Source of the DNA: Candidatus Gottesmanbacteria bacterium RIFCSPHIGHO2_02_FULL_39_11
GTDB taxonomy: Bacteria; Patescibacteriota; Microgenomatia; 2-02-FULL-39-11
Reading direction: 5' to 3'
Length of the DNA: 56,573 nucleotides
Assembly (NCBI GenBank): GCA_001779195.1
Contig: MFJL01000022.1
Location: 1 to 56,573 of the forward strand
Within the stretch, counting starts at the first letter, position 1, and each line of letters opens with the position of its first letter. Under the pieces are notes generated by a model, which did no database searches, was not told the origin of the DNA, and saw only the letters and a program-made list of their open reading frames with translations. This document shows, piece by piece, positions 15,868 to 52,242 of this stretch. The position numbers and the translations under genes are program-made.

Positions 15868-15931
15868 GTTTAGAGATGACTTCTAGGTTACTCATGATAG
15901 TTTCTTCCCATACAACGGGCATTCTACGTAG

Positions 15932-20874: not shown

Positions 20875-20885
20875 TTATGTTTGTT

Positions 20886-25900: not shown

Positions 25901-26195
25901 GAAGTTTGGTCATGACAATCTCAAGAGCTGATGTTTTATATTTAGGAACTATGTCAACCGGAATTCCTCTTCCGTCATCTGCAACAGTTACCGAGTTATC
26001 TTTATGGAGTATTATCCAGATATTTTGGGAAAATCCGGCAAGCGCCTCATCAACTGAATTATCGATTATCTCGGTAACGCAGTGGTGAACTCCGGTAAGA
26101 GAGGTTGATCCGATATACATTGCAGGGCGTTTTCGAACCGGCTCCAGCCCCTCAAGTACTACAATTTGTTCTCCTGAATACGTTTGCTTTGTCAT
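22941..26195 (-). CDS. gyrB: DNA gyrase subunit B, interrupted by an intein
   Basis: Extein motifs LEGLEPVRKRPAMYIG, DNSVDEA, DDGRGIPV, GGLHGVGASVVNA, EGDSAGG // SAKQGRDR, PLRGKILN and IMTDADVDGEHI. The exteins sum to about 650 aa. Confidence 0.95.
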   Translation of the reverse strand: MTKQTYSGEQIVVLEGLEPVRKRPAMYIGSTSLTGVHHCVTEIIDNSVDEALAGFSQNIWIILHKDNSVTVADDGRGIPVDIVPKYKTSALEIVMTKLHAGGKFSGDAYKVSGGLHGVGASVVNALSKWMEVIVTRDGKSFSQKYERGAVMSPVAPYKKNLLDLTKNLPSHFKYTSKNGTISNFLLDEEIFKEGIAATYDTIKRQIKERAYLVSKLFFHLFDERSNEEDHYYFEGGITSLVASVNRTRSPLHPPIFIQKQEGDVQLQAALQYNDGFSESVESFVNVINTIEGGSHLTGFRMALTRAINDYGKKIGAIKEGDDAIIGEDTREGLTAVVFIKMPATNLQFEGQTKTKLGNAEIQPFVQTTVNEALDVFFEEHPSDARRILEKVFLAAKARLAAKAAKDAIIRKGALEGSSLPGKLADCQSRDPKQSELYIVEGDSAGGCFSGDTKVALTDGRNLSFKELIAEDKAGKRNYCYSINSCGLISIALIKNPRITKKNTQIIKVILDNDEEIICTPDHLFMLRDGSYKQASNLTPDDSLMPLRKQLSRIGRRITIKDYEMVFDPGQHRWIFTHMIADKYNLDSGNYTLNKGAYRHHIDFNKHNNNPDNLTRLTKEEHLNLHKSHIEKTLHRPDSKIKAAQAHQTDRYKEKIKLIMSSPIIRQQLRQNARKQWQNQEYKKYMLQKFLEFYNTNSEYRKKNNQLLNYNQKRYWSSQHNRLAQSKRVSQFFHDHPEIKISLRNQANQLWENYELRKWRQQKTKEQWTPEFRSKRYATYNKTYLNKALNTLHQIYINSHKINKDQYNLIRKTTNDKNLLKYDTICHRFFNDSEQNFHTAITYYNHRVKAVILLQQKIDVYDIEVPETHNFALSSGIFVHNSAKQGRDRKFQAILPLRGKILNTERARLDRVLEFAEIKDLVIALGMGIAESLNPEKLRYHRIIIMTDADVDGEHIRTLLLTFFFRHLPYVVQNSHLYVAQPPLYKIQIGKESHYVYSEEEKDALLAKAKGGKFIPGLQRYKGLGEMNPEQLWDTTMNPANRILKQINVAEAVEADEVFSMLMGDEVLPRKRFIQTHAKSANLDV
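23556..24857 (-). mobile_element. Intein (434 aa) in GyrB at the DSAGG/SAKQGRD junction, with an HNH-type motif
   Basis: It starts CFSGDTKVALTDG (block A) and contains CTPDHLF (block B). It ends VYDIEVPETHNFALSSGIFVHN, followed by Ser as the first C-extein residue. The central part has YRHHIDFNKHNNNPDNLTRLTKEEHLNLH (HNH-like) and a long K/Q/N/W-rich repetitive stretch. Confidence 0.85.
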
Positions 26196-26230
26196 AGAAT
26201 TGTTACAGAATACCAGATATTGGGTAAAAA

Positions 26231-26908
26231 TCAAAGCCTCAGCAGTCCCAAAAAGAGAATATCCAAAACTCCTTTTGAAGAAACGTTGGCATCCAGATAA
26301 CTGCGCGCTGACTCAATTTTTGAAATTATTTCGCAAACCTGGCCGGATGTAAGAGTAGAGGGCGGTTGGAGGACAGATTGTTTAAGCAGCAAAATCTGAC
26401 GGTTTAAAAAATGGATTGCATCATTTTTATTTTTATTAAATTGCCCGGCAATTTGAAGACGTTTTCCTGGAGATGACTTTAAAATGGTGAGAAGGAGATC
26501 AAGACTCTCCTTACTTTCCAATTCATTTATCGGAACAAACTCTGTTTTAATAAGCTCGCATCGGGAATAAACGGTAGACAGAATTTTTTTACCGTTTTGG
26601 GCAACCAGGAGGATAAGGGTGTCCTGTGGAGGTTCTTCCAGAAGTTTTAAAAAAGCATTTTGAGCTTCATCTGTTGCGGTTTCGAATTTATGGACAATTA
26701 CCAGTCGGTATCCGGCTGCATTCATGTTAATAAGCTGTGATCTTATTTTTCTTACCAAATCAATCCCTACAGACGTTTCCGGTAAAAACTCAAACCGATT
26801 AAACGGCGTAATTGTGTATTTAGATTGAATACTATCTATTTCTTTTGTTATCTGTTTGCTGTTATCTGATATTAGTAAGTAGGAGCTGATCATAGTCTTC
26901 GTTGACAA
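26231..26908 (-). CDS. holB: DNA polymerase III delta-prime (HolB)-like clamp-loader subunit
   Basis: AQNAFLKLLEEPP motif followed by ...SRC. No clear P-loop, as is common for delta-prime. Confidence 0.7.
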   Translation of the reverse strand: MSTKTMISSYLLISDNSKQITKEIDSIQSKYTITPFNRFEFLPETSVGIDLVRKIRSQLINMNAAGYRLVIVHKFETATDEAQNAFLKLLEEPPQDTLILLVAQNGKKILSTVYSRCELIKTEFVPINELESKESLDLLLTILKSSPGKRLQIAGQFNKNKNDAIHFLNRQILLLKQSVLQPPSTLTSGQVCEIISKIESARSYLDANVSSKGVLDILFLGLLRL

Positions 26909-32855: not shown

Positions 32856-33320
32856 ATGAAAATTTCAAATTTCAAATTTCAAATTTCAAATTATAAAAAG
32901 GGGTTTACCCTTATCGAACTTCTTGTTGTGGTGACGATTATTTCAATTCTTTCAACACTCGGATTCACAAGTTATACGGCAGTTACAAAAGGCGGCCGGG
33001 ATGCACTGCGAAAATCAAATCTCGAGCAGGTCAGGTCAGCTTTGGAAATTTTCAGAGCTCAAAATTCAGTCTATCCTGCTACTCCTGGTTCATGCGGGGC
33101 TCGTCCCGGGACGGCCCCGCTTATACTAGATGCTACCTATATAAATACATATCCTACTGATCCGGTAAGCGGAAACAATTATTGTTATGTCCAGACGGGA
33201 GGAGGATCCGGATATCAGTTATGTGCGTTTTTAGAAAACGGTGCGGCCTCCGGTAGTTCTTGCGGAGGAGCCACTTGCAAAGGCGGATCAGGATGCAACT
33301 ATCAAGTAGTCAATCCATAA
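32856..33320 (+). CDS. Pilin-like protein whose leader peptide is encoded by a heptanucleotide repeat
   Basis: MKISNFKFQISNYKKG/FTLIELLVVVTIISIL. Confidence 0.75.
   Translation: MKISNFKFQISNYKKGFTLIELLVVVTIISILSTLGFTSYTAVTKGGRDALRKSNLEQVRSALEIFRAQNSVYPATPGSCGARPGTAPLILDATYINTYPTDPVSGNNYCYVQTGGGSGYQLCAFLENGAASGSSCGGATCKGGSGCNYQVVNP
32860..32892 (+). repeat. Heptanucleotide tandem repeat (aaatttc x 4.7) inside the pilin leader coding region
   Basis: Four full aaatttc units at 32860-32887 plus the partial aaatt. It begins at codon 2 of the gene. Confidence 0.9.
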
Positions 33321-34348: not shown

Positions 34349-34897
34349 ATGAAAAATCCAATTTCCAATTTCCAATTTCCAATTTCCAAAATAAGAGGAT
34401 TTTCCATGGTTGAGATGCTTGTAGTTATCGCGCTACTCGGGATTATAAGTACCATTGTTACTCAGGTTTTAGTAATATCAGTTCGTTCTAGTCTTAAAGC
34501 TGAAATTCAGAAAGAAGTAAAACAAAACGGAGATTATGCCATATCTATCATGGAAAGAGCTATAAGAAACGCAACGGATGTGGATGCAGCAGGGTGCAAT
34601 ATATCCAGAGACTTTGTAACTATTACCAATCGCGATACGACAACTACCACGTTTACCTGTAGTAGTTCGCCGAACAAAATTGTTTCATCGGCAGGAGTAG
34701 ACCTAGACCTAACCAATGATAAAGTAGCGTGGAGCGGGACATGTTATTTTCTTGTAGTGTGTCCTAATCCCCCTATAAGGCCCAAGTATGTATTTATCCA
34801 TTTCACCCTTGCACAAGCAGGAGGAGGTGGCGATCCCAATGCGTCTGCCACTCTCCCCTATCAGTCTACCATTGAACTAAGAACTAATAGCCCTTGA
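34349..34897 (+). CDS. Pilin-like protein whose leader peptide is encoded by a heptanucleotide repeat
   Basis: MKNPISNFQFPISKIRG/FSMVEMLVVIALLGII. Confidence 0.75.
   Translation: MKNPISNFQFPISKIRGFSMVEMLVVIALLGIISTIVTQVLVISVRSSLKAEIQKEVKQNGDYAISIMERAIRNATDVDAAGCNISRDFVTITNRDTTTTTFTCSSSPNKIVSSAGVDLDLTNDKVAWSGTCYFLVVCPNPPIRPKYVFIHFTLAQAGGGGDPNASATLPYQSTIELRTNSP
34357..34389 (+). repeat. Heptanucleotide tandem repeat (tccaatt x 4.7) inside the pilin leader coding region
   Basis: Four full tccaatt units at 34357-34384 plus a partial unit. After rotation the unit aatttcc differs by one base from the aatttca unit of 32860-32892. Confidence 0.9.
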
Positions 34898-34957
34898 TGA
34901 AATTAAGCTCATTTCTGTTTGGAAATATTATGACAGTATCCACCCTTCCGTTATAAT
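34844..34957 (+). repeat. Junction element copy 1 (pseudopilin 3' end, conserved spacer and promoter-like boxes)
   Basis: 34844-34929 aligns ungapped to 40757-40842 at 67 of 86 positions. It is followed by ATGACA (34930-35), 16 nt, TATAAT (34952-57), AGGAGG, and a 10-codon ORF. Confidence 0.8.
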
Positions 34958-35083
34958 AGGAGGTATTATGCTTAGCTTTAGATTATACGTGACAGTTTAG
35001 AACATAATATTGGATGCGCATAATTGAAAAAATCATTTTGCAGGACTACAATAAAAAAAGTACGAAACCATTTTTTTAATTTT

Positions 35084-35375
35084 ATGTCAGACAATCAATT
35101 AAAAATAATAGTAAAAAATTTAGTTTTAAGGACAGTTTCAACTCCTATTAGGGTGGGCTTGTATGGGTCACGAGCCAAGGGGGGTAGTCCCGGAAAATGG
35201 TCTGATATTGATGTAGTAGTCGCAGGAGATGAGCCACTTTGGGGGTGATAAGATTTCCGATCTACGGGAAGCCTTTGAAGAGTCTGATTTACCCTATTTT
35301 ACTGATGTGACAGATTTGCTCTCTACAAAAGGTCGATTTAAAGAACAGTTGTTAAAGGAGGTTGAATGGTTGTAG
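35084..35375 (+). pseudogene. Minimal nucleotidyltransferase (MNT-type antitoxin), frameshifted
   Basis: Frame 1 gives MSDNQLK..GLYGSRAKGGSPGKWSDIDVVVAGDEPLWG-stop. The family C-terminus (DKISDLREAFEESDLPYFTDVTDLL...EVEWL) continues in another frame. The break is at a G5 run (35241-35245). Confidence 0.65.
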
Positions 35376-35661
35376 AGGATCGACTTATATTGCGAGTGAA
35401 AGAGCTTCAGGATGCGCTCCTTACCCTTGAAGAGTCATTGGAAGAGGGGTTGAGGTATATAGCCCTAAATCCAGTATCAGGTCAGGAGCGCGCGAAGGAT
35501 TGATCGATGACCCGGAATTATGGTTTAAATTTCTAGAGGCCCGTAACTGGACAGTCCATATTTACGATATAAAAAAAGCAGATGAAACATACAATTGGGC
35601 TAAAAAATTTGTTCCTGAGGTAACAATATTATTGGAGAGAGTTACGAAGATTGAGATTTGA
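35366..35661 (+). pseudogene. HEPN (HI0074-like nucleotidyltransferase substrate-binding) toxin, disrupted
   Basis: The N-terminal part MVVEDRLILRVKELQDALLTLEESLEEGL stops early. The C-terminal part GLIDDPELWFKFLEARNWTVHIYD, carrying the R-x4-H motif, lies in another frame. The central region appears to be missing. Confidence 0.6.
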
Positions 35662-35700
35662 TAGGGTATGAAGATCGAAGATGTAGTTACATTTAGCCGA

Positions 35701-35782
35701 TTCCGTGATGAAATTACACTCATTTCCTCCTGAAAAACCTATTTCTTACAAAATTGACAAATCTTACAAAGGGGTATATAGT
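35701..35782 (+). repeat. Junction element copy 2, with promoter boxes
   Basis: ttccgtgatgaaattacactcatttcctcctgaaaaacc..., then TTGACA (35754-59), 17 nt, TATAGT (35777-82). Confidence 0.8.
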
Positions 35783-36103
35783 ATGCCTATGCTAAATAAC
35801 TCTGTATCCATCGATGACTTACGGACAAATCTTGCTGAATTTATTGGCAGAGTAATGTATGGTAAAGATCGAATTATCATTAAAAAATACAACCGGGATG
35901 CTGCAGTCCTTTTAAGCGTAGATGACTATGAAAAACTCCTTGATCCTACAAAACGCTTAAGTAAGTCTCAATGGGATGAAGAAGTACGTAAACTCGACAG
36001 CATACGGACAAATATTCCTGATGCCGATCCTACGGATATTGTAAAAGAGATTAATCAAGTCATCCGGGATGTGCGGGCAGAAAACAAAAATCAAAATGCA
36101 TGA
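35783..36103 (+). CDS. Phd/YefM-family antitoxin
   Basis: VSIDDLRTNLAEFIGRVMYGKDRIIIKKYNRDAAVLLSVDDYEKL. The track ORF start (35705) lies inside the repeat element. The true start is likely ATG 35783 or 35789; the latter is 6 nt after the -10 box, which would make the mRNA leaderless. Confidence 0.75.
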   Translation: MPMLNNSVSIDDLRTNLAEFIGRVMYGKDRIIIKKYNRDAAVLLSVDDYEKLLDPTKRLSKSQWDEEVRKLDSIRTNIPDADPTDIVKEINQVIRDVRAENKNQNA

Positions 36104-36528
36104 TTAGAGCGGTGTTAGATACCAATGTTTTAATTAGTGCACTTATTACAAAAAGACCATCTGCTCCGCTTGAGCTTTACAAAGCTTTTACCGCACAGCG
36201 TTTTCTTCTTATAACCTCCCCACCAATTCTTGAGGAGGTTGAAGATGTTCTTAATAGAGAAAAAATTGTGAAATACCACAAACTTACTCTGAAACAACGG
36301 AAAGCTATTATGGAACACCTGGTTATGCTCAGTTATGTGGCGTTGGAGTCAACAACTAATAAAGAAATCATTATTCAAAAAGATCCAAAAGATGATAAAT
36401 TTCTTTATGCAGCAAGAGAAACTCGTGCAGATTATATCGTGAGCGGTGATCATCATTTATTGGATTTGAAAGAATATGAAGATATTAAAATATATACGCC
36501 AAATGATTTTTTGGCAATTTTAGATTGA
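36100..36528 (+). CDS. PIN-domain toxin
   Basis: AVLDTNVLISALI at the N-terminus, acidic residues in ..EEVEDV.. and ..SGDHHLLDL.. . There is a 4-nt start/stop overlap with the antitoxin. Confidence 0.75.
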   Translation: MIRAVLDTNVLISALITKRPSAPLELYKAFTAQRFLLITSPPILEEVEDVLNREKIVKYHKLTLKQRKAIMEHLVMLSYVALESTTNKEIIIQKDPKDDKFLYAARETRADYIVSGDHHLLDLKEYEDIKIYTPNDFLAILD

Positions 36529-36542
36529 GTTACGGACATACC

Positions 36543-36614
36543 TTCCGCGATGAAATCAGGTTCATTTTAGCCTGGAAAACCAATCTTGACAAAACTATAG
36601 AGTAATGATACATC
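36543..36614 (+). repeat. Junction element copy 3, with -35 box
   Basis: ttccgcgatgaaatcaggttcattttagcctggaaaaccaatcTTGACAaaactatag. TTGACA is at 36586-91, and the -10 candidate is weak (tacatc). Confidence 0.75.
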
Positions 36615-36624
36615 CTATCCGTAT

Positions 36625-38313
36625 ATGCCAGGAACTCCGGATCAGAAGGAAATAGCTCAAGGTAAACCAGTAGAAAATACTAATAGCTATAAAGCAAGGG
36701 AACATTCCCGCAGAGCAGTATTAAGAGCTACTCTGTTCGGAGGACTGGGTACTCTTACATCAGGAGTACTGGGTGCCTGTTCTAGAAGTCCTGAAGTAAC
36801 TTCTCAACCTCAACCTGCAACTGCTCCGTCTACAGGAACACCAGAGGCAACCCTATTTCAAAATCCTAGAGGTACAGCAACAATCGTCTCTAGACCGAAG
36901 ATTGCCACTATTATACCTACTGCAACGTTGAATCCTCCGGAAGCTCTAACTCCTACCCCAGAATATGTACAAGGATTGACACATCTTCAGGAAGTTCCAA
37001 AACCTAATGAAGCTCTAAAAAAAACAACTATTGATATGTACGCAAAAACAATGGAAATTGATGCAAAGGAAGTAGAAGTAGGAATAAGCTTTAGTGAACT
37101 CAAAGATGAAAATGGCGATTATTTTGTTACAGCAGTTACACTAGACGAAACACCACTTTTAATTTATCATCCCATGAAAAACACATGGGTAGAGGCAGGA
37201 CCTAGAAATCTCGCTGATTTGCAAAACTTTACCATCCAAGTTCCAAGCAGAGTCGATTATTTGTCTTTACGTAATGTTCCTAATATTGAAAAAACTGCGA
37301 ATCAATTATTCAGCGCAAGCGAATTAAACACAAGTGTTGTATTTAGAAATTTTGAGACAGGCGACTGGAGGAAAATTATCGACACCTGGACTACCATCAA
37401 ATCAGATCTAGATCAAGGTATTATTCCTGAGGGATTTAATTTTAATTGGAACGATGCAAACAAATTTGTAGATTTCGCTACATCCCATCAAATGAAAGTT
37501 AGAGCATTACATTTACTCTGGGGTGGAGATGTTCCAGACTCCATTTACAACGGAGATTTTAGTCCGAAAGATGTTGAGAAAATTGTAGAATTTACCGTAA
37601 AAGCTAGAGTTTTAAGATATAACGGTACAGTTGATGGACGTACAATCAGTGAATGGCATGCTGCTGATGAAATTGCAGCCACTCATTTATATCATCATAA
37701 TGATAAATGGTCATTCTGGTTGGAAAAATTAGGATACCCTCAAGCAACAATTAAAGTTGCGAAGTGGGCAAAAGAAGCCAATCCTAACGCATCTTTAGTA
37801 ATTGCTGAAGATAGTATATTGCATTTACGACAAGACCGAGCCAATTGGAAAAGTAATTTTTTCAATTTACTGAAATTTATAAAAGACCGTGAGGTACCCA
37901 TAACTAAAGTTGATGTAGAAAATAATTTATGGATTTATGATCCTCCAAAGCTCGACGAAATGATATCTATCTTACGGAGAATTCAGGCAATGGGATTTGA
38001 AATCGGCGGATCTGAAGCGACAGTAGCAACTTCTGATACTTCGCCAGATTGGGTTTATCAGGATAAGATGAGGGATGTTAAGGATAAAACAATTGCACAA
38101 GCTGATGTTTATGGCGATATTTTAAGCGCATATCTTGCGGTTGGGGCAAAGGAGTGGGGTTTTGGCAGTCCCTCAGATCGAACAGAATATTTTGACGATA
38201 TTGGTTATCCTGATGCAAACTCAACAATATTTGATGATCAAGAATTGCCTAAAAAATCGTATTACAGAATTCTGAAAGTACTGTACCAAAACTTAAAAAG
38301 CTCCCAAGGATAA
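36625..38313 (+). CDS. Tat-signal lipoprotein with a glycoside-hydrolase-like (clan GH-A/GH10-like) C-terminal domain
   Basis: Twin-arginine signal SRRAVLRATLFGGLGTLTSGVLGAC with a lipobox Cys, then a Pro/Thr-rich linker. The strand-end pattern (VRALHLLWGG, SEWHAADE, VIAEDS, VDVENNLW, GFEIGGSEATV) is reminiscent of (beta/alpha)8 glycosidases. Family assignment is tentative. Confidence 0.4.
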   Translation: MPGTPDQKEIAQGKPVENTNSYKAREHSRRAVLRATLFGGLGTLTSGVLGACSRSPEVTSQPQPATAPSTGTPEATLFQNPRGTATIVSRPKIATIIPTATLNPPEALTPTPEYVQGLTHLQEVPKPNEALKKTTIDMYAKTMEIDAKEVEVGISFSELKDENGDYFVTAVTLDETPLLIYHPMKNTWVEAGPRNLADLQNFTIQVPSRVDYLSLRNVPNIEKTANQLFSASELNTSVVFRNFETGDWRKIIDTWTTIKSDLDQGIIPEGFNFNWNDANKFVDFATSHQMKVRALHLLWGGDVPDSIYNGDFSPKDVEKIVEFTVKARVLRYNGTVDGRTISEWHAADEIAATHLYHHNDKWSFWLEKLGYPQATIKVAKWAKEANPNASLVIAEDSILHLRQDRANWKSNFFNLLKFIKDREVPITKVDVENNLWIYDPPKLDEMISILRRIQAMGFEIGGSEATVATSDTSPDWVYQDKMRDVKDKTIAQADVYGDILSAYLAVGAKEWGFGSPSDRTEYFDDIGYPDANSTIFDDQELPKKSYYRILKVLYQNLKSSQG

Positions 38314-38468
38314 AAGCTTCCCTTGCTCACCCCTATTTAAATTTTGTTTATAATGGCACTATGCGATCTGTTATTTTGTCATTACTTGTCTTAATCCAAC
38401 TATCAGTTATTGTATTTCTCGGCATGCATATATATAGAATATAGAAAAGTACATAAGAATAATTTTAA

Positions 38469-38507
38469 TACTAGTACTAGATACTAAGTACTAGTACTAG
38501 GGGTACT
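38469..38507. repeat. Tandem tactag units containing two copies of the 10-bp palindrome ctagtactag
   Basis: ctagtactag at 38471-80 and 38491-500, immediately outside the left inverted repeat of the RayT-like gene. Confidence 0.8.
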
Positions 38508-39238
38508 AGGGGACGGTTCTCAAAGCTCAAATAGCCTCATGATTGATAGAAATAATTAAATATGATATCTTATCTTCCTGTATTCGTTATATCTTTGTTC
38601 TTTTGATCCCCATATCTTTTTCTTGTAGGTATTCCGAACAAGTTCATCAATGATTATCTCCTTATATATCATTTGCCTTTCCTTTCCGGTATTTCCCAAT
38701 TCCTGATAAAACATATCCCCGGTAATCAGTGGATCAGTTTTTCCTTCGGAATAAAACGTATAGCTTGAGTAGGTATAGTCTTTGGGATGTCTCACAATAG
38801 CTGCTCTCACGGGATTCAGTTCAATGTACTTTCCACATTGAATAAAATAGTTATCTTTTCCAATCGGCTGGCTTTTAAACCTGTCTTGCCAGAAATGTCC
38901 CACCCACCCATACTTTTTTTTGTAGTAGTAAAAATAGATGAGGTTTATCTTTTTCATAAACGATGAAAAGTCGCTTTCCTTGTTTGTTTTTATTAATAAA
39001 TAGACATGATTTGGCATGAGGCAATAATGGTACAGATCAAACGGGTGTATCTCTTTGAGGTCTCTTACTATTTTGAGGTATTTATCATAATCATCATTCT
39101 GTCTGAAGATTGTATTTAGATTATTTCCCCGAGTCATCACATGATAGAAGGACAAAGGAAGGAGAAGTCGGGGAGATCTTGGCATGATTGAAAAGTAATA
39201 TATCCGTCTATATCGTATTCATTTCAGAACCGTCCCCT
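38508..39238 (-). mobile_element. REPtron-like unit: Y1 transposase gene flanked by 13-bp perfect inverted repeats
   Basis: aggggacggttct (38508-20) and agaaccgtcccct (39226-38) bracket the gene 38556..39185. Confidence 0.6.
38556..39185 (-). CDS. IS200/RayT-like HUH (Y1) tyrosine transposase homologue
   Basis: Motifs FYHVMTRGNN, CLMPNHVYLLI (the HUH position reads H-V-Y), WQDRF and GKYIELNPVRAAIV (catalytic Tyr context). Confidence 0.75.
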   Translation of the reverse strand: MPRSPRLLLPLSFYHVMTRGNNLNTIFRQNDDYDKYLKIVRDLKEIHPFDLYHYCLMPNHVYLLIKTNKESDFSSFMKKINLIYFYYYKKKYGWVGHFWQDRFKSQPIGKDNYFIQCGKYIELNPVRAAIVRHPKDYTYSSYTFYSEGKTDPLITGDMFYQELGNTGKERQMIYKEIIIDELVRNTYKKKIWGSKEQRYNEYRKIRYHI

Positions 39239-39330
39239 ATGTCTTATTAATGACAAAGCATAGTAATAAAATATTGGGTTTGCTAACCTCCAGTGTAATT
39301 GGAGCTTTAGCCTATCCGTGTCAAATATAC

Positions 39331-39359
39331 TTGACACGAATGGTGTATTATTGTAGAAT
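39331..39359 (+). promoter_or_regulatory. Sigma70-like promoter (TTGACA-17 nt-TAGAAT) overlapped by an 8-bp-stem palindrome
   Basis: TTGACA at 39331-36 and TAGAAT at 39354-59, with the ATG 9 nt downstream and no SD sequence. The hairpin cgtgtcaa-atatac-ttgacacg (39317-38) covers the -35 box. Confidence 0.5.
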
Positions 39360-39368
39360 ACAATTTAT

Positions 39369-40748
39369 ATGGAAACATCTGAGATAGAATTACTTATAAA
39401 AAAGTGGAATCCTCACTTTGAAGATCCAACCAAGGGTGAATGGGTAGGCAAAATACCCCGTGAGAAGTACATGCAGCGCCTTTGGAAAGTCATGGATATA
39501 CGCCACATAGTGATACTTACGGGTGTTCGAAGGTCTGGAAAGTCTACCCTCATGCGTCAGCTGATGGGAAGATTAATACGGGAAGGTACAAAACCCACAA
39601 ACGTATTGTATTTATATTTTGAAGATCTTTTGGTACAAAAATATCTCTCCCAGGGCTCTGATCTTTTGGAGCAGTTTTACTCATTTTATATGGAAAAATA
39701 TAACCCTCAAGGGAAAGTGTATTTATTCCTGGATGAACTGCAGGGGATAAAAGACTTTAACCACTGGCTGCACACACATTATGAGTTTAATAAAAATATA
39801 AAATTTGTTGTGTCAGGTTCGCGAAGATCTCTTATAGACTCAGAAACGGCTACCCTTCTTACTGGCAGGAATGTCCAATTTGATATATATCCTTTCAACT
39901 TTTATGAGTATCTATTAGTTCATAATGTAGAAGTCAAAGGCAGCAACACCATAGAGAATATACGCGATGCTAATTTTAGCCAAACCACGAGCATACTGCA
40001 CCACTTAGGCAATTTCTTATACGAAGGAGGCTATCCGGAGATAGTGTTGGCAATAAATCAGGAAAGTAAAAGTGCCATAGCTAATGGTTATTATCGCGAC
40101 ACCCTTGCTAGAGATGTCATAAATCCCAACAATATACGCAATCCCAGAGAAATAGAAGTGTTAGGACTGCAAGTGCTTGCAGACTTTACTAAAACTCATA
40201 CTTATCGGAGCCTAGGGCAACCACAAGGACTCTCGGTAGATACAGTCAAAACATACTTAGAGTATTTTTATAAATCTTACCTTTTGTTTGAGAGTCGGCA
40301 TTTTTCTTACAAAACTAAAGAAACCCATGATGTACGCCGTCCCATAAAGTTGTACGTAGTAGATAATGGTCTAAGAAACTTTAATACATTAAACCTTCGT
40401 CCGGATTTAGGTCAGTGTGCCGAAAATATGGTCTATATGGAGCTTGCGAAAAATAATGCAGTTATACATTATTGGAAAAAAGAAAAAGAAATTGATTTTG
40501 TCGTATTTAATCCCAATCTTTCACTAGTTAATGTTTCGTATACAGATCAAGTACACGAACGAGAAGTCAAAAGTATAGTTGAGAGCTTGCGGGAGTTTAA
40601 TCTTAAAAAAGGAACAATTCTGACAAAAAACTACTTTGAAACAAAAGAAATTGAAGGAAAAATAGTTGAATTTATACCTCTCTGGGCTTGGCTTATTTTA
40701 AATGGAAGAGTCTTCTTCAAAGAAACAAACATACTTAGAGAAGCCTAA
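39369..40748 (+). CDS. AAA-family ATPase (AAA_14 / DUF4143 type)
   Basis: Walker A GVRRSGKST and Walker B LFLDELQ. The C-terminal part has the restriction-endonuclease-like tail typical of DUF4143 proteins (EIDFVV). Confidence 0.7.
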   Translation: METSEIELLIKKWNPHFEDPTKGEWVGKIPREKYMQRLWKVMDIRHIVILTGVRRSGKSTLMRQLMGRLIREGTKPTNVLYLYFEDLLVQKYLSQGSDLLEQFYSFYMEKYNPQGKVYLFLDELQGIKDFNHWLHTHYEFNKNIKFVVSGSRRSLIDSETATLLTGRNVQFDIYPFNFYEYLLVHNVEVKGSNTIENIRDANFSQTTSILHHLGNFLYEGGYPEIVLAINQESKSAIANGYYRDTLARDVINPNNIRNPREIEVLGLQVLADFTKTHTYRSLGQPQGLSVDTVKTYLEYFYKSYLLFESRHFSYKTKETHDVRRPIKLYVVDNGLRNFNTLNLRPDLGQCAENMVYMELAKNNAVIHYWKKEKEIDFVVFNPNLSLVNVSYTDQVHEREVKSIVESLREFNLKKGTILTKNYFETKEIEGKIVEFIPLWAWLILNGRVFFKETNILREA

Positions 40749-40756
40749 GTTCGATA

Positions 40757-40874
40757 TCTGCCAATCTCCCCTACCAATCAACAATTGAACTCAGAACAAA
40801 CACTCCGTGATGAAATTACACTCATTTTTGCCTGGAAAACCTATCTTGACAAAACTATAGGCTAGTGGTATAAC
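40757..40874 (+). repeat. Junction element copy 4, including a relic pseudopilin 3' end and a strong promoter
   Basis: 40757-40810 reads S-A-N-L-P-Y-Q-S-T-I-E-L-R-T-N-T-P-stop with no gene attached. Then comes ccgtgatgaaattacactcatttttgcctggaaaacc, then TTGACA (40846-51), 17 nt, TATAAC (40869-74). Confidence 0.8.
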
Positions 40875-40959
40875 TATGGCGCATATGAAAACGAATTTCA
40901 GCTTTTATTCCATTCCTGACGCTCTGTTTTTTATACTATTTACAAACGTTTCGTATACC

Positions 40960-40990
40960 AAATCCCGCATAAAGCGGGATTTTTCTTTTT
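40960..40990 (+). terminator. Intrinsic-terminator-like hairpin abutting the start codon of the next gene
   Basis: aaatcccgc-ataaa-gcgggattt (9-bp stem) followed by ttcttttt. The ATG of the 845-aa ORF is the next base. Confidence 0.6.
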
Positions 40991-43528
40991 ATGTCTAATC
41001 CGAATGAACAATTACACCAAGATCAGGGAAATGATATAGGATTTGATGGAAACAGACAGTCTCTGGAATTCGAAAAATGGATAGCAGGTGAAGGTCTTAA
41101 AAAAAATATTCCTCTTACTCTTATCAAAGTAAATTATTCACCCGGCAGCTTAAATAGATTATCATCCAGGAGAGATTTGCTTGCGCCATTTACGGTATTT
41201 GCAGGTGTAGTAGGCTCTGCTTTAAATGATGCGCCAACGCGGATTCCGAAAAACTCAGACTCATCAACACCAAGAAAAGTAACGAGTAGACGGAGTTTTT
41301 TAAAAGCTTCTGGATTGACTGCAGTTGCTGCTGGATTAGTTTCTTGTATGCCTAGTTCCAGTCCGCAACCGGTTAATAAAGAAGTTCAACCTAAACTAGT
41401 ACCCCCTACTCCACAAGTTGTTCCTGAAAAAGATCTGTTAGCATCTTTAACATCAGACTCAACATTTGTTGATGCACAGACATGGGGAAGAAATAACTTT
41501 ATACCTCAAATGGAAGCTCTGGCAATACAATTTCCTCCTGACACTGTACAAAATATGAAAATGAATATTTTTCAAGCACAAGGCGAGGATAATAAACCAG
41601 TAGGTTATATCTTTGAAGTTGTAGATGAGAAAAATAAAAAACATGTCTATTCTGGTGCTGATACTGATGGTAGTGGAGGAGTGTATATTACTATTTCTGA
41701 CGAACTTATAATAGAAAAAGATAGGAAGACTGGACTTAATAGAATAATTCCCATTAATCAAAAACAGGATCGTTATGTATATAGGTACTCTACTCCTGAT
41801 AGGGGTGATTACTTAGATCCAAGAATTGGTATGATGGTTGGTATTGGAATTGGTGTGACTGATAGTACTCAACTGAATAAAGGAAATGAGTTTCTAACAA
41901 AAATATCTCCTCTGCTGAGTAATTTTGTAAAAGATCAAGTATTAAATCAAAAGCAGGATCAAGCTGAATTTAGTTTTAAAGTAAACCAATCAAATGGAAA
42001 ATTTTATGGGACTTTTGAAGAAATAAATAACGAAAAAGAAACATCAATTTATGTAGTGTCTGAGAGTGCAGAGATTCATAAGCTGGATCAAGTTTCAGGC
42101 TACACGTACTCTTTAGATGAAATAACAGGCGAGATACTCCTGTATAAAGATGGAGAAAAGGCTGGACGAGTAAAAACCGTAAATTCAAAAGGCCAGGTTC
42201 TACAAATTGAAACGACACCGGACGCAACAGCTACAGCAGAACCAACCAATGTGCCAAAACCAACAGGTACACCAACATCAGTTGATACACCAATAGTAGT
42301 AGTTACACAGGGTGCGACAGCTGCAGCACAGCTAACAAGTATACCAACATCAGCTGATACAGCAACAGCAAATGCTGTAGCAACACAGGCTGCTACGTCT
42401 ACTCCGCAGCCAACTAATTCTGTAGCGAAGGTTGAAATTACCATTACAGCTAATGGACCTATTGCAACTTTAAGGCCTCCTACTGAAACACCCGATCCTA
42501 AAAAGGAAATTTTAACTCCTGATTCACCTCTTAAAGAACTACTACATAAAATAGGGATTCCCCAAGTAGGAGTTGCTTCTAATTTTTATGGAGATACAGA
42601 TGCAATTCATATCCTAAAAATGAATACAATTGCGCAAGAAGAAGACTTCTTTTATCCTTTCGGAGTTTTTTATTTGGAAAATACGCAAAAAAATTCACCA
42701 TGGATAGCTCAGGAAGATCAAAGCATCGCTGATTATGCGGTGTCACAGGCGCAAGCAAAGGGGTTAAAACTCTTCTTAGAGCCAGTTACATGGAATGAAG
42801 CCGCAATGAAGAAGTTTGAAACAGGCGCCGCTTGGTTAAATGATTCTATGTCAGCAGAAGACACAATTAAATCTGTCGAGGAAAGAGGAGCATATTTAGC
42901 AAAGAGGTATGCTGACAAAGGCTTAGATACTATAAGTGTTGCGGTTGAGCCGTACGAGTCCAGAGATGGAGTAAATTGGAAGATAGATAATAGGTGGGAT
43001 AAAGCGTATAAAAAAGTGGAGAAGCCATATGATTATATAGAAGGAATAGCACGAGCGATCCGGGAAGTAAATACGAATGTCCATATTTTAGGTATAAACC
43101 CATATGGCGCATTAGCTGGCGAAACAGTAGCAGATCTTGTATATGAAAAGTATAAACAGTACAAGGAACACAGAGCACCCATTGATACTGTAGGATTTCA
43201 GGGAGATATTAAAGCGAAAGACCTTCCTCTAAATATTTCAGCTATTCGAAAAAATATCCAGCGTTTTCAAGACTTAGGTTTCAGAGTCGATGTAAACTCT
43301 ATCAGAATTACCGGTACAAATGATGCTAAAGTATTGGCTAAAGCCTATTATGATCTTTCTGTCTTATGCGGAGAGATGGGCTGTCCGTTTTCTGTATGGG
43401 GTATCGTCCCTAAAGATGTAAATAACTTTGGAGGATATCCTATATTCTATGATGAGAATGTTGAGCAAACAGATCTCCTAATTGAATTCAAAAAACTTCT
43501 GGCAGGCAAAATTAACGGCACGGCATGA
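40991..43528 (+). CDS. Large exported protein with tandem Tat-like signals and a C-terminal domain distantly paralogous to 36625..38313
   Basis: RR motifs at residues 60-61 (SSRRDLLAPFTVFAGVVGSAL) and 100-101 (SRRSFLKASGLTAVAAGLVSC, with lipobox). A Thr/Ala/Pro-rich linker follows. The C-terminal strand-end pattern is LFLEPVTWNEA, VAVEPYES, GINPYG, VGFQGDI, GFRVDVNS. The start is uncertain. Confidence 0.45.
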   Translation: MSNPNEQLHQDQGNDIGFDGNRQSLEFEKWIAGEGLKKNIPLTLIKVNYSPGSLNRLSSRRDLLAPFTVFAGVVGSALNDAPTRIPKNSDSSTPRKVTSRRSFLKASGLTAVAAGLVSCMPSSSPQPVNKEVQPKLVPPTPQVVPEKDLLASLTSDSTFVDAQTWGRNNFIPQMEALAIQFPPDTVQNMKMNIFQAQGEDNKPVGYIFEVVDEKNKKHVYSGADTDGSGGVYITISDELIIEKDRKTGLNRIIPINQKQDRYVYRYSTPDRGDYLDPRIGMMVGIGIGVTDSTQLNKGNEFLTKISPLLSNFVKDQVLNQKQDQAEFSFKVNQSNGKFYGTFEEINNEKETSIYVVSESAEIHKLDQVSGYTYSLDEITGEILLYKDGEKAGRVKTVNSKGQVLQIETTPDATATAEPTNVPKPTGTPTSVDTPIVVVTQGATAAAQLTSIPTSADTATANAVATQAATSTPQPTNSVAKVEITITANGPIATLRPPTETPDPKKEILTPDSPLKELLHKIGIPQVGVASNFYGDTDAIHILKMNTIAQEEDFFYPFGVFYLENTQKNSPWIAQEDQSIADYAVSQAQAKGLKLFLEPVTWNEAAMKKFETGAAWLNDSMSAEDTIKSVEERGAYLAKRYADKGLDTISVAVEPYESRDGVNWKIDNRWDKAYKKVEKPYDYIEGIARAIREVNTNVHILGINPYGALAGETVADLVYEKYKQYKEHRAPIDTVGFQGDIKAKDLPLNISAIRKNIQRFQDLGFRVDVNSIRITGTNDAKVLAKAYYDLSVLCGEMGCPFSVWGIVPKDVNNFGGYPIFYDENVEQTDLLIEFKKLLAGKINGTA

Positions 43529-51526: not shown

Positions 51527-51563
51527 AGTGGTATTATATATGATTAGAAGTCATTTCAATACC

Positions 51564-51630
51564 GTCATCCTGAACCTGCCTGCACTGAACATAATCACTA
51601 AGTCAGATGCTGAAATAAATTCAGCATGAC
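51564..51630. repeat. REP/MITE-like hairpins of the same family as 15473-15867
   Basis: The reverse complement of gatgctgaaataaattcagcatgac (51606-51630) differs at 1 of 25 positions from 15786-15810 (gtcatgctgaattcatttcagcatc). A degenerate gtcatcctgaac.. unit lies at 51564. Confidence 0.75.
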
Positions 51631-51663
51631 AAATTAACTAAAGTTTTGTTATATATTCTAGAT

Positions 51664-52242
51664 ATGATTCGGCACCAGGCTTATAAAATTATTGCTTTTA
51701 TTCTTTTTATTCCGGCTATTTTTATATTTCTTATTCTGTATGTTCCAGTTGTTGCCGCAAGCCGCGGGAGTTTTTTCTTTAAACAAAAAAGAATTGGAAA
51801 AGACGAAAAACCATTTACCATGTATAAGATTAGGACTATGCAAGCGGACGCCGAATATATAAAACACACCTTATTAAAAAAAAATCAGGCGGATGGACCG
51901 GTATTTAAAATTAAAAATGATCCCAGATTTACCGGAATCGGCAGAGTATTGGCCCAATACGGAGTTGATGAATTGCCTCAGATATTTAATATTATAAAAG
52001 GAGAAATGAGTTTTGTGGGGCCCCGTCCCCTGCCGGTTGACGAAGCAAAAAAAATACCTCAAAAATATCAAATTCGGCAATCGGTACTTCCCGGAATTAC
52101 TTCTCTTTGGGTGGCAAAAGGGTCGCATTCACGGCTTAACTTTAAGGAGTGGATGGAAAGTGATCTAGAATATATTGAAAACAATTCTCTTTTTGAGGAC
52201 ATGAGGATTATTATTCTTACTATAAAGGGACTTCTGCTATAG
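51664..52242 (+). CDS. Undecaprenyl-phosphate sugar phosphotransferase (small PglC/WbaP-type initiating transferase)
   Basis: Motifs KRIGKDEKPFTMYKIRTM, GPVFKIKNDPR and DELPQIFNIIKGEMSFVGPRP. The start was set at ATG 51664. Confidence 0.85.
   Translation: MIRHQAYKIIAFILFIPAIFIFLILYVPVVAASRGSFFFKQKRIGKDEKPFTMYKIRTMQADAEYIKHTLLKKNQADGPVFKIKNDPRFTGIGRVLAQYGVDELPQIFNIIKGEMSFVGPRPLPVDEAKKIPQKYQIRQSVLPGITSLWVAKGSHSRLNFKEWMESDLEYIENNSLFEDMRIIILTIKGLLL

What the first reader, a model, noticed from the sequence alone, without database searches (positions are those of the whole stretch)
34844..40874. Repeat-bounded ~5.9 kb accessory island at the end of the pilin operon, with a displaced relic of the pseudopilin 3' end and four copies of a promoter-bearing junction element
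Positions 34844-34929 cover the last 17 codons and stop of the pilin-like gene 34349..34897, plus 32 nt downstream. They align without gaps to 40757-40842 at 67 of 86 positions (hand count). In the 18-codon part both copies read (T/N)LPYQSTIELRTN(S/T)P and stop with TGA at the same place. Eight of the 11 nucleotide differences there are synonymous third-position changes. The distal copy is therefore a relic of a once-coding homologous 3' end with no gene attached, which is the classic signature of insertion or replacement at a gene 3' end. The non-coding half (CCGTGATGAAATTACACTCATTT..CCTGGAAAACC.ATCTTGACAAAACTATAG) also recurs at 35701 and 36543. Each copy sits directly after a stop codon and supplies a TTGACA box 16-17 nt upstream of a TATAAT-like box for the next unit. 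The element thus partitions the region into cassette-like units: a decayed MNT/HEPN pair; a Phd-PIN pair; a Tat lipoprotein with a RayT-like gene and an ATPase; and then the large Tat protein. The logic resembles an integron or shufflon-style cassette array: TA modules separated by a repeated junction. However, I see no IntI-type integrase, the element does not look like attC, and each cassette carries its own promoter. The responsible recombinase is unknown; the RayT-like gene inside and the Xer-type gene at 15.9 kb are the only candidates in the window.
Basis: partly seen in the sequence, partly recalled or inferred. Interest (0 to 1): 0.72.

Follow-up and report, generated by a model that had tools for sequence, protein, structure and literature searches.

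The report
Gene islet inserted behind a pilin gene
A 5.9 kb block of accessory genes (two toxin-antitoxin pairs, a spare glycosidase, a transposase and a candidate defence ATPase) has been inserted between the last pilin gene and a cell-surface sugar gene cluster of an uncultivated groundwater bacterium, and each insertion left a copy of the pilin gene's tail and its downstream promoter region, so the history can be read but no integron-like machinery is evident.

Summary
The 86-nt match (67/86) and its excess of synonymous differences reproduce. The junction core "J" occurs four times, at 34.89, 35.70, 36.54 and 40.80 kb. It occurs nowhere else in 66.5 kb of this genome.

A related genome (L047, pilin 74% identical) supplies the empty site. 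There the pilin stop is followed directly by J, a leader and a GH10 gene. Copy 4 plus its leader is the orthologue of that stretch (about 85-88% identity, against 72% for the pilin gene).

New points:
- Copy 3 also carries a pilin-tail relic, IELRTYLP, with synonymous Leu and Arg codon-family switches.
- Copy 3 fronts a second GH10 gene of the kind that heads this glycan cluster in other genomes.
- J is not attC-like, not dif-like and not a dispersed repeat.
- The island has no integrase.
- Seventeen contigs from several samples are collinear, so there is no sign of cassette shuffling.

Best reading: the island grew by serial insertions of DNA from related lineages, anchored by homology in the conserved pilin tail and promoter. 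J is the native promoter region, duplicated as a by-product. Site-specific recombination at J is not excluded. Moderately interesting; a new variant of a known kind.

The parts
34349..34897 (+). Last (minor) prepilin gene of the type IV pilus operon, intact, 182 aa
   Evidence: Pfam N_methyl 2.1e-06. NCBIfam IV_pilin_GFxxxE. Orthologues P0003 (74%) and P0004 (64%) end ...LPYQSTIELRS(N/D).
34844..34929 (+). Copy 1: the live pilin 3' end (17 codons plus stop) and the J1 core
   Evidence: (D3, D6). In the three-way comparison with copy 4 and L047 it carries 14 of the 26 variable sites as private changes.
34930..34957 (+). Promoter-like site of unit A (ATGACA-16-TATAAT), outside the shared core
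   Evidence: 11/12. Homology to the other J copies ends at about 34929.
35024..35661 (+). Unit A: decayed MNT (nucleotidyltransferase)/HEPN toxin-antitoxin pair, four ORF fragments
   Evidence: NTP_transf_2 9.4e-05 on 35024-35248. NTase_sub_bind 3.5e-10 on 35500-35661. The frames are broken.
35686..35742 (+). Copy 2: a degraded trace upstream (AGATGTAGTTAC...TTCCG, resembling copy 3), then the J2 core from 35701
   Evidence: J2 shares a 24-nt identical run with J4, TCCGTGATGAAATTACACTCATTT.
35744..35782 (+). Unit-B-specific promoter (TTGACA-17-TATAGT) embedded in 3 x TCTTACAAA, a likely antitoxin operator
35783..36528 (+). Unit B: Phd/YefM antitoxin (35783-36103) and PIN_3 toxin (36100-36528), intact
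   Evidence: PhdYeFM_antitox 2.9e-14 and PIN_3 6.1e-20. TIGR01552 and TIGR00305.
36524..36627 (+). Copy 3: a second pilin-tail relic (36524-36553, reads I E L R T Y L P R stop), the J3 core, and the shared promoter up to the ATG of the GH10 gene
   Evidence: translation ...IELRTYLPR. D4 (104 nt, 74% to 40784-40887).. The PIN stop TGA (36526-36528) lies inside the ATTGA that begins the relic.
36625..38313 (+). Unit C gene 1: GH10-family protein with a Tat signal and lipobox, 562 aa. It is a second copy of the kind of gene that heads the glycan cluster.
   Evidence: Glyco_hydro_10 4.1e-20. Homologues at 41-45% identity sit directly upstream of GDSL-GT-Wzy-carbamoyltransferase clusters in L062 and L063.
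38507..39239 (-). Y1 (HUH) transposase unit: gene 38556-39185 bounded by 18-nt inverted repeats TAGGGGACGGTTCTCAAA
   Evidence: Y1_Tnp 3.8e-16. REP_Tyr_transpos 71 bits, below the cut-off of 80. The inverted repeat matches at 17/18 and has only these two copies in the window.
39369..40748 (+). AAA_14/DUF4143 ATPase, a candidate phage-defence gene
   Evidence: AAA_14 3.9e-31 and DUF4143 6.8e-18. PADLOC PDC-S01 7e-91.
40757..40887 (+). Copy 4: displaced relic of the ancestral pilin 3' end (40757-40810), the J4 core, and the native promoter (TTGACA 40846-40851, TATAAC 40869-40874)
   Evidence: Orthologous to L047 1056-1190. 47/54 identical to the live pilin tail of L047. Only 4 private changes.
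40885..40998 (+). Conserved leader of the downstream GH10 gene: a small ORF (MKTNFSFYSIPDALFFILFTNVSYT...) and a terminator-like hairpin at 40960-40982
   Evidence: Weak Rfam Trp_leader hit, E = 0.31.
40991..43528 (+). Resident GH10-family Tat protein, 845 aa, first gene of the surface-glycan cluster. It marks the right flank of the island.
   Evidence: Glyco_hydro_10 9.3e-12 and TAT_signal. It is followed by GDSL, carbamoyltransferase, glycosyltransferases and Wzy.

Best explanation
The region is a lineage-specific accretion islet of about 5.9 kb. It sits at the seam between the type IV pilus operon and a surface-glycan gene cluster.

The ancestral arrangement survives in the relative L047: last pilin gene, then J plus a leader, then a GH10 gene. 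J is the native and unusually conserved 5' regulatory region of that GH10 gene. It consists of an upstream core overlapping the pilin stop codon, a sigma-70-type promoter, and a leader with a small ORF and a hairpin.

The pilin tail plus J is the best-conserved DNA at this locus among related lineages. I infer that it served as the homology anchor when DNA from relatives that also carry 'pilin-J-something' was taken up. These bacteria are thought to be naturally competent.

Each insertion was one-sided. There was a homologous crossover in the pilin gene or J on the left. On the right there was an illegitimate join, or a Campbell-type join, inside the last 9-18 codons of the resident pilin gene. 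Each event gave the pilin gene a new tail and a new J, added the donor's cargo behind it, and pushed the previous tail and J downstream as a relic.

The result is: pilin-J1-[dead MNT/HEPN]-J2-[Phd-PIN]-relic-J3-[GH10-562, Y1 unit, defence-type ATPase]-relic-J4-leader-GH10-845.

The J copies are therefore by-products of insertion. They still put a promoter region in front of each unit, and J4 keeps the glycan cluster under its native control.

Shown: the repeats, the relics, the empty site, the orthology of copy 4, the absence of an attC or dif signature, and the fixed order in the population. Inferred: the donor lineages, the one-sided homologous mechanism, the order of events and the promoter activity.
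For: 1. Empty site. In L047 the pilin stop is followed by J, the leader and a GH10 gene, with nothing in between.

2. Copy 4 plus its leader is orthologous to that stretch: 84.5% over 238 nt by BLASTN and 88% column identity. The pilin gene itself is 72% identical, and the two GH10 proteins behind J cannot be aligned. So J plus the pilin tail is the most conserved DNA at the locus.

3. Three-way comparison over 86 nt. Copy 1 has 14 private changes, copy 4 has 4 and L047 has 7. The live tail is therefore the divergent one and the dead relic is the conservative one. That is the opposite of what in-situ duplication followed by decay predicts, and it fits a tail imported from a more distant lineage.

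4. Copy 3 is a second relic. ATT GAG TTA CGG ACA TAC CTT CCG reads IELRTYLP, against IELRTNTP in copy 4. Leu (TTA/CTC) and Arg (CGG/AGA) are kept through two-base codon-family switches. Its 'LRTY' is the state seen in more distant pilin orthologues. It therefore diverged while still coding, in another lineage.

5. Copy 3 fronts GH10-562. Its homologues occupy the head of the same glycan cluster in L062 and L063. So unit C looks like a foreign version of the same locus, not arbitrary cargo.

6. The relic lengths differ (54 nt and about 27 nt), and so do the right-hand limits of homology (about 34929, 35742, and the ATG at 36627). This argues against a fixed att site.

7. The join between PIN and relic 3 lies in a shared ATTGA, which is a microhomology.

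8. The island has no integrase, and its base composition matches its surroundings, as expected for donors that are close relatives.

9. From the literature: Patescibacteria carry many genomic islands and are thought to take up DNA through ComEC and pili (PMC12455944). One-sided homology with a microhomology join is the documented HFIR (homology-facilitated illegitimate recombination) route in transformable bacteria (PMC6382021).
Against: All three right-hand joins fall within the last 54 nt of a 549-nt pilin gene. That clustering is tighter than random illegitimate joins would give and hints at site preference.

The J core has a weak dyad (TCCGNGATGAAAT-N7-ATTTYNNNCTGGA) of the size of a tyrosine-recombinase core site.

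Unit A lies next to the pilin gene and so should be the youngest under leftward accretion, yet it is the most decayed unit.

No donor genome carrying 'pilin-J-Phd/PIN' or 'pilin-J-MNT/HEPN' was found. Only one relative with J exists in the searchable data.

The 24-nt identity between J2 and J4, and 34/35 identity between J3 and J4, show gene conversion or constraint. Either would blur any history read from the copies.

The branch-length asymmetry rests on 18 sites (binomial p about 0.03).
Confidence: 0.5

Rival explanations
1. Site-specific recombination at J. The J core (a weakly dyad-symmetric stretch of about 33 nt overlapping the pilin stop) is an att-like site used by a recombinase encoded elsewhere, for example the Xer-like gene at 15932-16894 or a gene outside the window. 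Small circular modules carrying a J-like site integrate one after another, as in tandem islands at tRNA genes or Xer-dependent modules.
For: There are four direct copies, all at one locus, each at a unit boundary. The three relic boundaries cluster within 54 nt. The arrangement is 13-7-13, with 7-9 of 13 arm positions symmetric in the four window copies and 6 of 13 in L047 (read). The halves look hybrid: the left half of J4 is identical to J2 over 24 nt, and its right half matches J3 at 34/35. A tyrosine recombinase is present in the window.
Against: Neither the island nor its edges carry a recombinase. The relic lengths and the right-hand limits of homology differ between copies. The central 7 nt differ between copies (TAAGCTC, TACACTC, CAGGTTC), which would block strand exchange by a tyrosine recombinase. 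The dyad is no stronger than chance by folding z-scores. There is no dif-like ATAA-N6-TTATG in J. J occurs nowhere else in 66.5 kb of this genome, nor in two large collections. There is no structural variation among 17 contigs.
Confidence: 0.2
2. An ancient in-situ array. The segment 'pilin tail-J-GH10' was duplicated in tandem long ago in the common ancestor, the copies diverged, and TA modules and other genes landed between them. L047 later lost the array by recombination between J copies, so its 'empty site' is secondary.
For: Unit C starts with a paralogous 'relic-J-GH10' segment (D4, 43-45). Recombination between direct J repeats would cleanly regenerate a single J. The central 7 nt of J in L047 (TAAGCTC) equal those of J1, while its right half resembles J4.
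Against: The pilin tail of L047 is closer to the dead relic of copy 4 (47/54) than to the live copy 1 (41/54). Copy 1 carries 14 private changes against 4 for copy 4, which is unexpected if the relic has drifted freely since an old duplication. Copy 3 keeps Leu and Arg through codon-family switches, so it diverged while still coding. The model still needs three breakpoints within the last 54 nt of the pilin gene.
Confidence: 0.15
3. An integron-like or shufflon-like cassette system. J would be the cassette recombination site, and the units would be excised, reordered or exchanged by a dedicated recombinase.
For: Small TA units are separated by a repeated junction. TA cassettes are typical of chromosomal integrons (PMC13108822).
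Against: J has no attC-like hairpin and no covariation. There is no integron integrase; the hits are far below cut-off. The units have their own promoters. All copies are direct, whereas shufflons need inverted sites. The relics cover only the conserved last 8-17 codons, so they cannot supply alternative pilin tips. The order is fixed in all contigs.
Confidence: 0.03
4. The Y1 (RayT-like) transposase inside unit C mobilised the units, with J as its REP-like substrate.
For: A Y1/HUH gene lies in the island. Such enzymes act on short structured DNA repeats.
Against: The Y1 gene is bounded by its own 18-nt inverted repeats, which are unrelated to J. J does not form a hairpin as single-stranded DNA. 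The Y1 unit is found only in this one context in all contigs. J also occurs in L047, and no Y1 gene lies in the 11 kb fetched there.
Confidence: 0.05

Closest known systems
Genomic islands integrated at the 3' end of a gene (tRNA, tmRNA or protein-coding targets), including tandem 'accretion' arrays
   Same: The island is flanked by direct repeats derived from the target gene's 3' end. The gene is kept intact by a replacement tail. The old tail is displaced as a relic at the far end. Several units are separated by repeat copies. A relative has the empty site.
   Different: There is no integrase at either edge and no identical core in the repeats (the longest shared run between J1 and J4 is 11 nt). 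The relic lengths differ. The target is a minor pilin gene plus the promoter of the next operon. The units are very small, about 0.8 kb for the TA pairs.
[quoted passage not shown] 2002; summarised in PMC6382021)
   Same: There is a one-sided homologous anchor and a join at a few bases of microhomology (ATTGA at the PIN/relic-3 join). Foreign DNA is added without any mobile-element machinery. The host phylum is thought to be competent (PMC12455944).
   Different: HFIR is known from laboratory crosses. Here it is inferred from one natural locus, repeated up to three times, with joins clustered in 54 nt and the anchor duplicated each time.
Integron cassette arrays and CALINs (clusters of attC sites lacking an integrase) (PMC4889954; TA cassettes: PMC13108822)
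   Same: It is an array of small units, including TA pairs, separated by a recurring element downstream of a fixed platform.
   Different: There is no attC structure and no IntI. The units carry their own promoters. The repeat contains coding relics of the neighbouring gene.
Acinetobacter dif modules and Xer-dependent integrating elements (PMC6449649)
   Same: They are small modules, often TA pairs, bounded by a short recurring site and moved without a module-encoded recombinase. A Xer-like gene is present in the window.
   Different: dif sites are 28 bp (11-6-11) with a conserved inner palindrome, and they flank modules in inverted orientation. J lacks that consensus and all its copies are direct.
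Variable regions at pilin loci: the R64 PilV shufflon; Neisseria pilE/pilS with the conserved Sma/Cla repeat; Pseudomonas aeruginosa pilA-accessory gene region (the last two from my own knowledge)
   Same: A conserved sequence at or after the pilin 3' end recurs, with partial pilin copies nearby. The region downstream of a pilin gene is a hotspot for strain-specific genes.
   Different: The relics here are only 8-17 codons of the conserved tail and are in direct orientation. They cannot diversify the pilin. The cargo is unrelated to pilus biology.

Membership tests
Integron / CALIN | attC sites: imperfect palindromes that fold as single-stranded hairpins (R''-L''...L'-R') | tested here: not met
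   Single-stranded DNA folds of all four J copies on both strands give MFE -1.8 to -7.2 kcal/mol and z-scores -0.87 to +1.92. The alifold consensus is -1.7 kcal/mol with 0 compensatory pairs. The IntegronFinder attC model itself was not available.
Integron / CALIN | An IntI-type integrase next to the array (not required for CALIN) | tested here: not met
   Island ORFs have no Phage_integrase hit. The only tyrosine recombinase lies 19 kb away and scores 130 bits against the 265 cut-off for integron integrase, but 239 bits for XerD.
Integron / CALIN | Promoterless cassettes expressed from a platform promoter | tested here: not met
   Consensus promoters (11/12) lie in unit-specific sequence ahead of units A and B. 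These are predictions only.
Shufflon (R64 type) | Inverted recombination sites flanking alternative pilin C-terminal segments, plus an Rci-type recombinase | tested here: not met
   All J copies and relics are direct. The relics are 8-17 codons of the conserved tail. There is no adjacent recombinase.
Integrase-mediated island at a gene 3' end | Direct repeats derived from the target 3' end bounding the island, and an empty site in relatives | tested here: met
   Copy 1 and copy 4 are 67/86 identical. L047 has the empty site.
Integrase-mediated island at a gene 3' end | An integrase gene at one edge and an identical crossover core in both repeats | tested here: not met
   There is no integrase in 34.9-40.9 kb. 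The longest identical run between J1 and J4 is 11 nt. The relic boundaries differ between copies.
dif module / Xer-dependent element | A 28-bp dif-like site (11-6-11 with a conserved inner palindrome), with sites in inverted orientation around modules | tested here: not met
   No ATAA-N6-TTATG lies in or near any J. The copies are direct. The definition is taken from PMC6449649. The dif site of this phylum is unknown, so the test uses the general bacterial consensus.
HFIR product | Homologous anchor on one side and a microhomology join on the other | tested here: inconclusive
   The anchor is plausible, since the pilin tail plus J is the best-conserved DNA. ATTGA is shared at the PIN/relic-3 join. 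The donor sequences are unknown, so the joins cannot be verified.
REP/RAYT system (REPtron) | A Y1 gene flanked by inverted REPs that are also dispersed through the genome | tested here: inconclusive
   The Y1 gene has 18-nt flanking inverted repeats, but no further copies occur in the window. The NCBIfam REP_Tyr_transpos score is 71, below the cut-off of 80. J is unrelated to these repeats.
   nhmmer with --max finds only the four copies in the 56.6 kb window plus a further 10 kb, and one copy in L047. Pattern scans of the genome and metagenome collections gave only chance hits. Those collections do not hold this organism.

The most novel reading that the evidence does not exclude
The pilin-tail/J core is a true recombination site for a recombinase encoded elsewhere in the genome. 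Under this reading, this group of CPR (Candidate Phyla Radiation) bacteria runs an integrase-free cassette platform. It would capture small self-expressed modules (TA pairs, defence genes, alternative surface glycosidases) at the end of the competence-pilus operon. It would also swap the hypervariable GH10 gene behind a fixed promoter and leader.
Probability: 0.12. Interest if true: 0.8.

Novelty: new variant of a known kind. Interest (0 to 1): 0.45.

Why it matters
CPR (Candidate Phyla Radiation)/Patescibacteria have tiny genomes and few recognisable mobile elements, yet they show many small islands. How these are acquired is unclear.

This locus preserves molecular fossils: two or three displaced pilin tails and four copies of a promoter region. 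Together with the empty site in a relative, they point to repeated insertion at one seam without any island-borne integrase, most simply by homology-anchored uptake of DNA from relatives.

If that is right, conserved regulatory DNA can act as a landing pad for accessory and defence genes in streamlined, naturally competent bacteria. Relic tails could then be used to find and order such events in metagenomes.

The locus also shows a hypervariable secreted GH10 enzyme behind an 88%-conserved promoter and leader. That boundary is sharp, testable, and possibly shaped by recombination.

Tried and rejected
1. Pattern scans for the J core in genome contigs and metagenome contigs. All 38 hits had flanks at chance identity.

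2. Homologue search with the 845-aa GH10 protein. It returned only the query itself. The search was wasted, probably swamped by low-complexity words.

3. Rfam at permissive and gathering thresholds. Nothing was found for J.

4. attC-like or any conserved secondary structure in J. None was found.

5. A dif-like motif in J. None was found.

6. Structural variants such as excision, reordering or circles among contigs carrying the exact PIN, Y1 or pilin proteins. All are collinear with the window. The only differences are SNPs, a tandem-repeat indel and a scaffold gap with an alternative 163-nt patch in L003.

7. A link between J and the Xer-adjacent inverted repeats at 15.8 and 51.6 kb. They share no motif.

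8. A link between J and the Y1 terminal repeats. None was found.

9. A compositional anomaly in the island. None was found.

10. Coding potential of the small ORF MKL(H/S)SF... that overlaps the pilin stop inside J. It has a premature stop in J3, and between J4 and L047 there are about as many replacement as silent changes. I rejected it as evidence of a gene.

11. Copy 2 as a clear pilin relic. Only a degraded trace resembling copy 3 is present. I do not count it as shown.

Full report
**Context**

The window comes from an uncultivated groundwater bacterium. Exact-protein look-ups place it on Rifle aquifer contigs (PRJNA268031, several samples), including a 92.7 kb contig.

Gene order around the finding runs as follows:
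- gyrA, H+-pyrophosphatase, gyrB (with an intein) and holB;
- pilB, pilT, pilC, a pilin, the prepilin peptidase and five minor pilins, the last at 34349-34897;
- the region in question;
- a surface-glycan cluster headed by a Tat-signal GH10-family gene (40991-43528), followed by a GDSL esterase, a carbamoyltransferase, glycosyltransferases, Wzy and a sugar transferase.

Yes. Positions 34844-34929 and 40757-40842 match at 67/86 without gaps (43/54 coding, 24/32 non-coding). The repeat finder reports the pair as 82 nt at 80% (D6). Both copies read SA(T/N)LPYQSTIELRTN(S/T)P-stop.

Ten codons differ, 8 synonymously. If about a quarter of random changes are silent, 8 or more of 10 has a probability of about 4e-4 (my calculation).

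The non-coding core, called J here, recurs at 35702 and 36544 (D3; alignments A1, A3, A4). Chance expectation is zero. A profile search with all filters off finds only these four copies in the window and none in 10 kb more of the same contig.

Independent assemblies span all four copies at 100% (L054) and 99.94% (L052) identity, so this is not an assembly artefact.

**The empty site**

A homologue search with the pilin found a 74%-identical orthologue on a contig from another study, L047. There the pilin gene is followed after 180 nt by a 763-aa GH10 gene, and further on by Wzy, glycosyltransferases, GDSL and carbamoyltransferase genes.

The last pilin codons of L047 and the intergenic region align with window copy 4 and its downstream leader. 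BLASTN gives 84.5% over 238 nt, and the pairwise alignment gives 88% column identity. By comparison:
- the pilin genes are 72% identical;
- the carbamoyltransferase genes are 65% identical;
- the two GH10 proteins behind J cannot be aligned beyond the Tat motif.

The relic at 40757-40810 is therefore the ancestral pilin tail, still attached to its native downstream DNA. Everything from about 34844 to 40756 is extra.

More distant relatives (L048-L051) have pilX-, pilM-, pilN- and pilO-like genes after this pilin and no J.

**Anatomy of the junction**

All five J copies share about 45 nt: TCCG(T/C)GATGAAAT-N7-ATTT(Y)-N3-CTG(G/A)AAAACC(T/A)AT. This core overlaps the pilin stop codon.

Beyond it the copies diverge:
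- J1 and J2 continue into unit-specific promoters: ATGACA-16-TATAAT at 34930-34957 and TTGACA-17-TATAGT at 35754-35782. The second is embedded in three TCTTACAAA repeats that look like an antitoxin operator.
- J3, J4 and L047 share the native promoter TTGACAAAACTATAG...TA(C/T)A(T/A)(C/A).
- J3 stays homologous to J4 exactly up to the ATG of GH10-562 (D4).

J4 and L047 carry about 110 nt more. This leader has a small conserved ORF (MKT.FSF.S.PD..FFILFTNVSYT), with 7 silent and 5 conservative codon differences between the two genomes. It is followed by a terminator-like hairpin just before the GH10 start.

J is therefore the regulatory region of the gene that heads the glycan cluster. The promoters of units A and B are their own and are not supplied by the shared element.

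**A second relic**

In the pilin frame, the 24 nt before the J3 core read ATT GAG TTA CGG ACA TAC CTT CCG, which is IELRTYLP. Copy 4 reads IELRTNTP. Leu and Arg are conserved through two-base switches between codon families.

A random sequence would encode IELRT in that register with a probability of about 1e-6 (my calculation). 'LRTY' is the C-terminal state of more distant orthologues.

This tail therefore evolved under protein-level selection in a different lineage before it was stranded here. The PIN stop codon lies inside the ATTGA that starts the relic.

Copy 2 shows only a degraded trace similar to copy 3. I do not count it as shown.

**Where did the units come from?**

GH10-562, which follows relic 3 and J3, has homologues at 41-45% identity. 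In L062 and L063 these sit at the head of the same GDSL-GT-Wzy-carbamoyltransferase cluster. Unit C therefore begins with a foreign version of this very locus: pilin tail, J, GH10.

Over the 86-nt repeat, copy 1 has 14 private changes, copy 4 has 4 and L047 has 7. The live tail is the odd one out. The dead relic is the closest to the relative.

That is hard to reconcile with in-situ duplication followed by decay of the relic (14 against 4, binomial p about 0.03). It fits replacement of the tail by imported DNA.

The island's base composition matches its surroundings, as expected if the donors are relatives.

**What it is not**

- Not attC-like. Single-strand folds are no better than shuffles, and there is no conserved or covarying helix.
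- Not dif-like (definition from PMC6449649).
- No match in Rfam.
- Not a dispersed repeat (collection scans gave only chance hits, although those collections lack this organism).
- No integrase in the island. The tyrosine recombinase at 15.9 kb is Xer-like.
- Not linked to the Y1 gene, which forms its own unit bounded by 18-nt inverted repeats unrelated to J.
- No sign of shuffling. All contigs carrying the exact PIN, Y1 or pilin proteins, from at least eight samples, are collinear with the window.

**Most likely mechanism (inferred)**

The pilin tail plus J is the best-conserved stretch at a seam where the flanking genes are diverging fast. DNA from relatives that share this stretch can therefore pair there.

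A homologous exchange on the left, combined with an illegitimate or Campbell-type join in the resident pilin tail on the right, has four effects:
- it adds the donor's tail, J and cargo;
- it keeps the pilin gene intact;
- it strands the old tail and J downstream;
- it leaves the glycan cluster under J4.

Repeating this, or importing an array already built this way, gives the present structure. This is the pattern of homology-facilitated illegitimate recombination (HFIR) known from transformable bacteria (PMC6382021). It also suits a phylum credited with pilus- and ComEC-dependent DNA uptake and many small islands (PMC12455944).

The weak points are these:
- all joins fall within 54 nt;
- the J core has a weak 13-7-13 dyad;
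- unit A is decayed although it should be the youngest;
- no donor genome was found.

I therefore keep site-specific recombination at J as a live alternative (0.2), and an ancient duplication with loss in L047 as another (0.15).

The 24-nt identity between J2 and J4, and the 34/35 identity between J3 and J4, show gene conversion or strong constraint among the copies.

**Function of the content**

- Unit A is a dead MNT (nucleotidyltransferase)/HEPN toxin-antitoxin pair.
- Unit B is an intact Phd-PIN pair.
- Unit C carries a spare secreted GH10 enzyme, a Y1 transposase unit, and an AAA_14/DUF4143 ATPase that matches the PADLOC candidate defence family PDC-S01 at 7e-91.

Taken together this is a small addiction and defence islet.

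**Verdict**

The island and relic reading is right. The integron or shufflon reading is not supported.

The locus is a clean and unusually legible example of integrase-free accretion at a conserved promoter in a CPR (Candidate Phyla Radiation) genome. It is a new variant of a known kind and moderately interesting. There is a minority chance that J is a real recombination site.

Noticed in passing
window 32860-32892 and 34357-34389: There are perfect 7-nt tandem repeats (AAATTTC x4.7 and TCCAATT x4.7) inside the leader-peptide codons of two prepilin genes. The 92.7 kb contig from another sample has exactly one AAATTTC unit fewer, which shifts the frame from the ATG. This is candidate slipped-strand phase variation of pilins.
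   Followed up: partly
window 40885-40998; L047 1184-1290: A leader lies upstream of the GH10 gene. It has a small Phe-rich ORF (MKT.FSF.S.PD..FFILFTNVSYT) conserved between the two genomes with mostly silent or conservative changes. A terminator-like hairpin follows at 40960-40982. There is a weak Rfam Trp_leader hit, E = 0.31. It may be a peptide-dependent attenuator.
   Followed up: partly
window 40991-43528 vs L047 1289-3580 vs window 36625-38313: Three GH10-family Tat proteins sit behind near-identical J regions, yet they cannot be aligned with one another by BLASTP, apart from a short N-terminal P(D/N)(E)Q motif seen by eye in the translations and the Tat region. Homology between the genomes stops at the start codon. 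This is either a hypervariable gene or one that is repeatedly replaced.
   Followed up: partly
window 15752-15885 and 51545-51664: Two inverted copies of an element of about 120-130 nt carry an internal 8-bp hairpin (ATGCTGAA...TTCAGCAT) and a GTTCAGGATGACGGT box (I1 and I5). One copy lies 47 nt upstream of the Xer-like recombinase gene. The other is a roughly 100-nt insertion relative to L047. The pair brackets 35.7 kb, including the whole pilus operon. It could be a MITE-like repeat or an inversion site.
   Followed up: partly
window 38341-39275: Several assemblies break just outside the Y1 unit, at 38341-38349 and 39260-39275. Two contigs show 15-17-nt indels relative to the window; I did not locate them, though the TACTAG tandem array at 38468-38512 is an obvious candidate. 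In three contigs the Y1 ORF was called as 115 aa instead of 209, although the DNA is identical.
   Followed up: partly
window 34926-35108; L003 3885-4057: Contigs from several samples end 29-32 nt after the pilin stop (three contigs, at the J1 core/unit A boundary) or at 35041 (three contigs). One scaffold has a gap at 35041 followed by 163 nt that differ from window 35042-35108 and give a longer MNT N-terminus. This may be strain-level heterogeneity in unit A.
   Followed up: partly
window 22941-26234 (-): The gyrB gene is interrupted by an intein (Pfam Intein_splicing 1.3e-16 between the GyrB and Toprim domains).
   Followed up: no
window 7433-7474 and 8862-8903: A 42-nt inverted repeat (88% complementary) flanks a single MFS-transporter gene at 7568-8821 (I2; Pfam). 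It is a possible mobile or invertible cassette.
   Followed up: no
window 14886-15091: Three direct copies of a 41-nt AT-rich element lie at spacings of 93 and 72 nt, in the intergenic region upstream of the recombinase gene (D7). They may be iteron-like.
   Followed up: no
window 18128-18155 and 20850-20877: A 28-nt inverted repeat (93% complementary), built from TAAGTNAC-like units, lies on either side of gyrA (I14).
   Followed up: no
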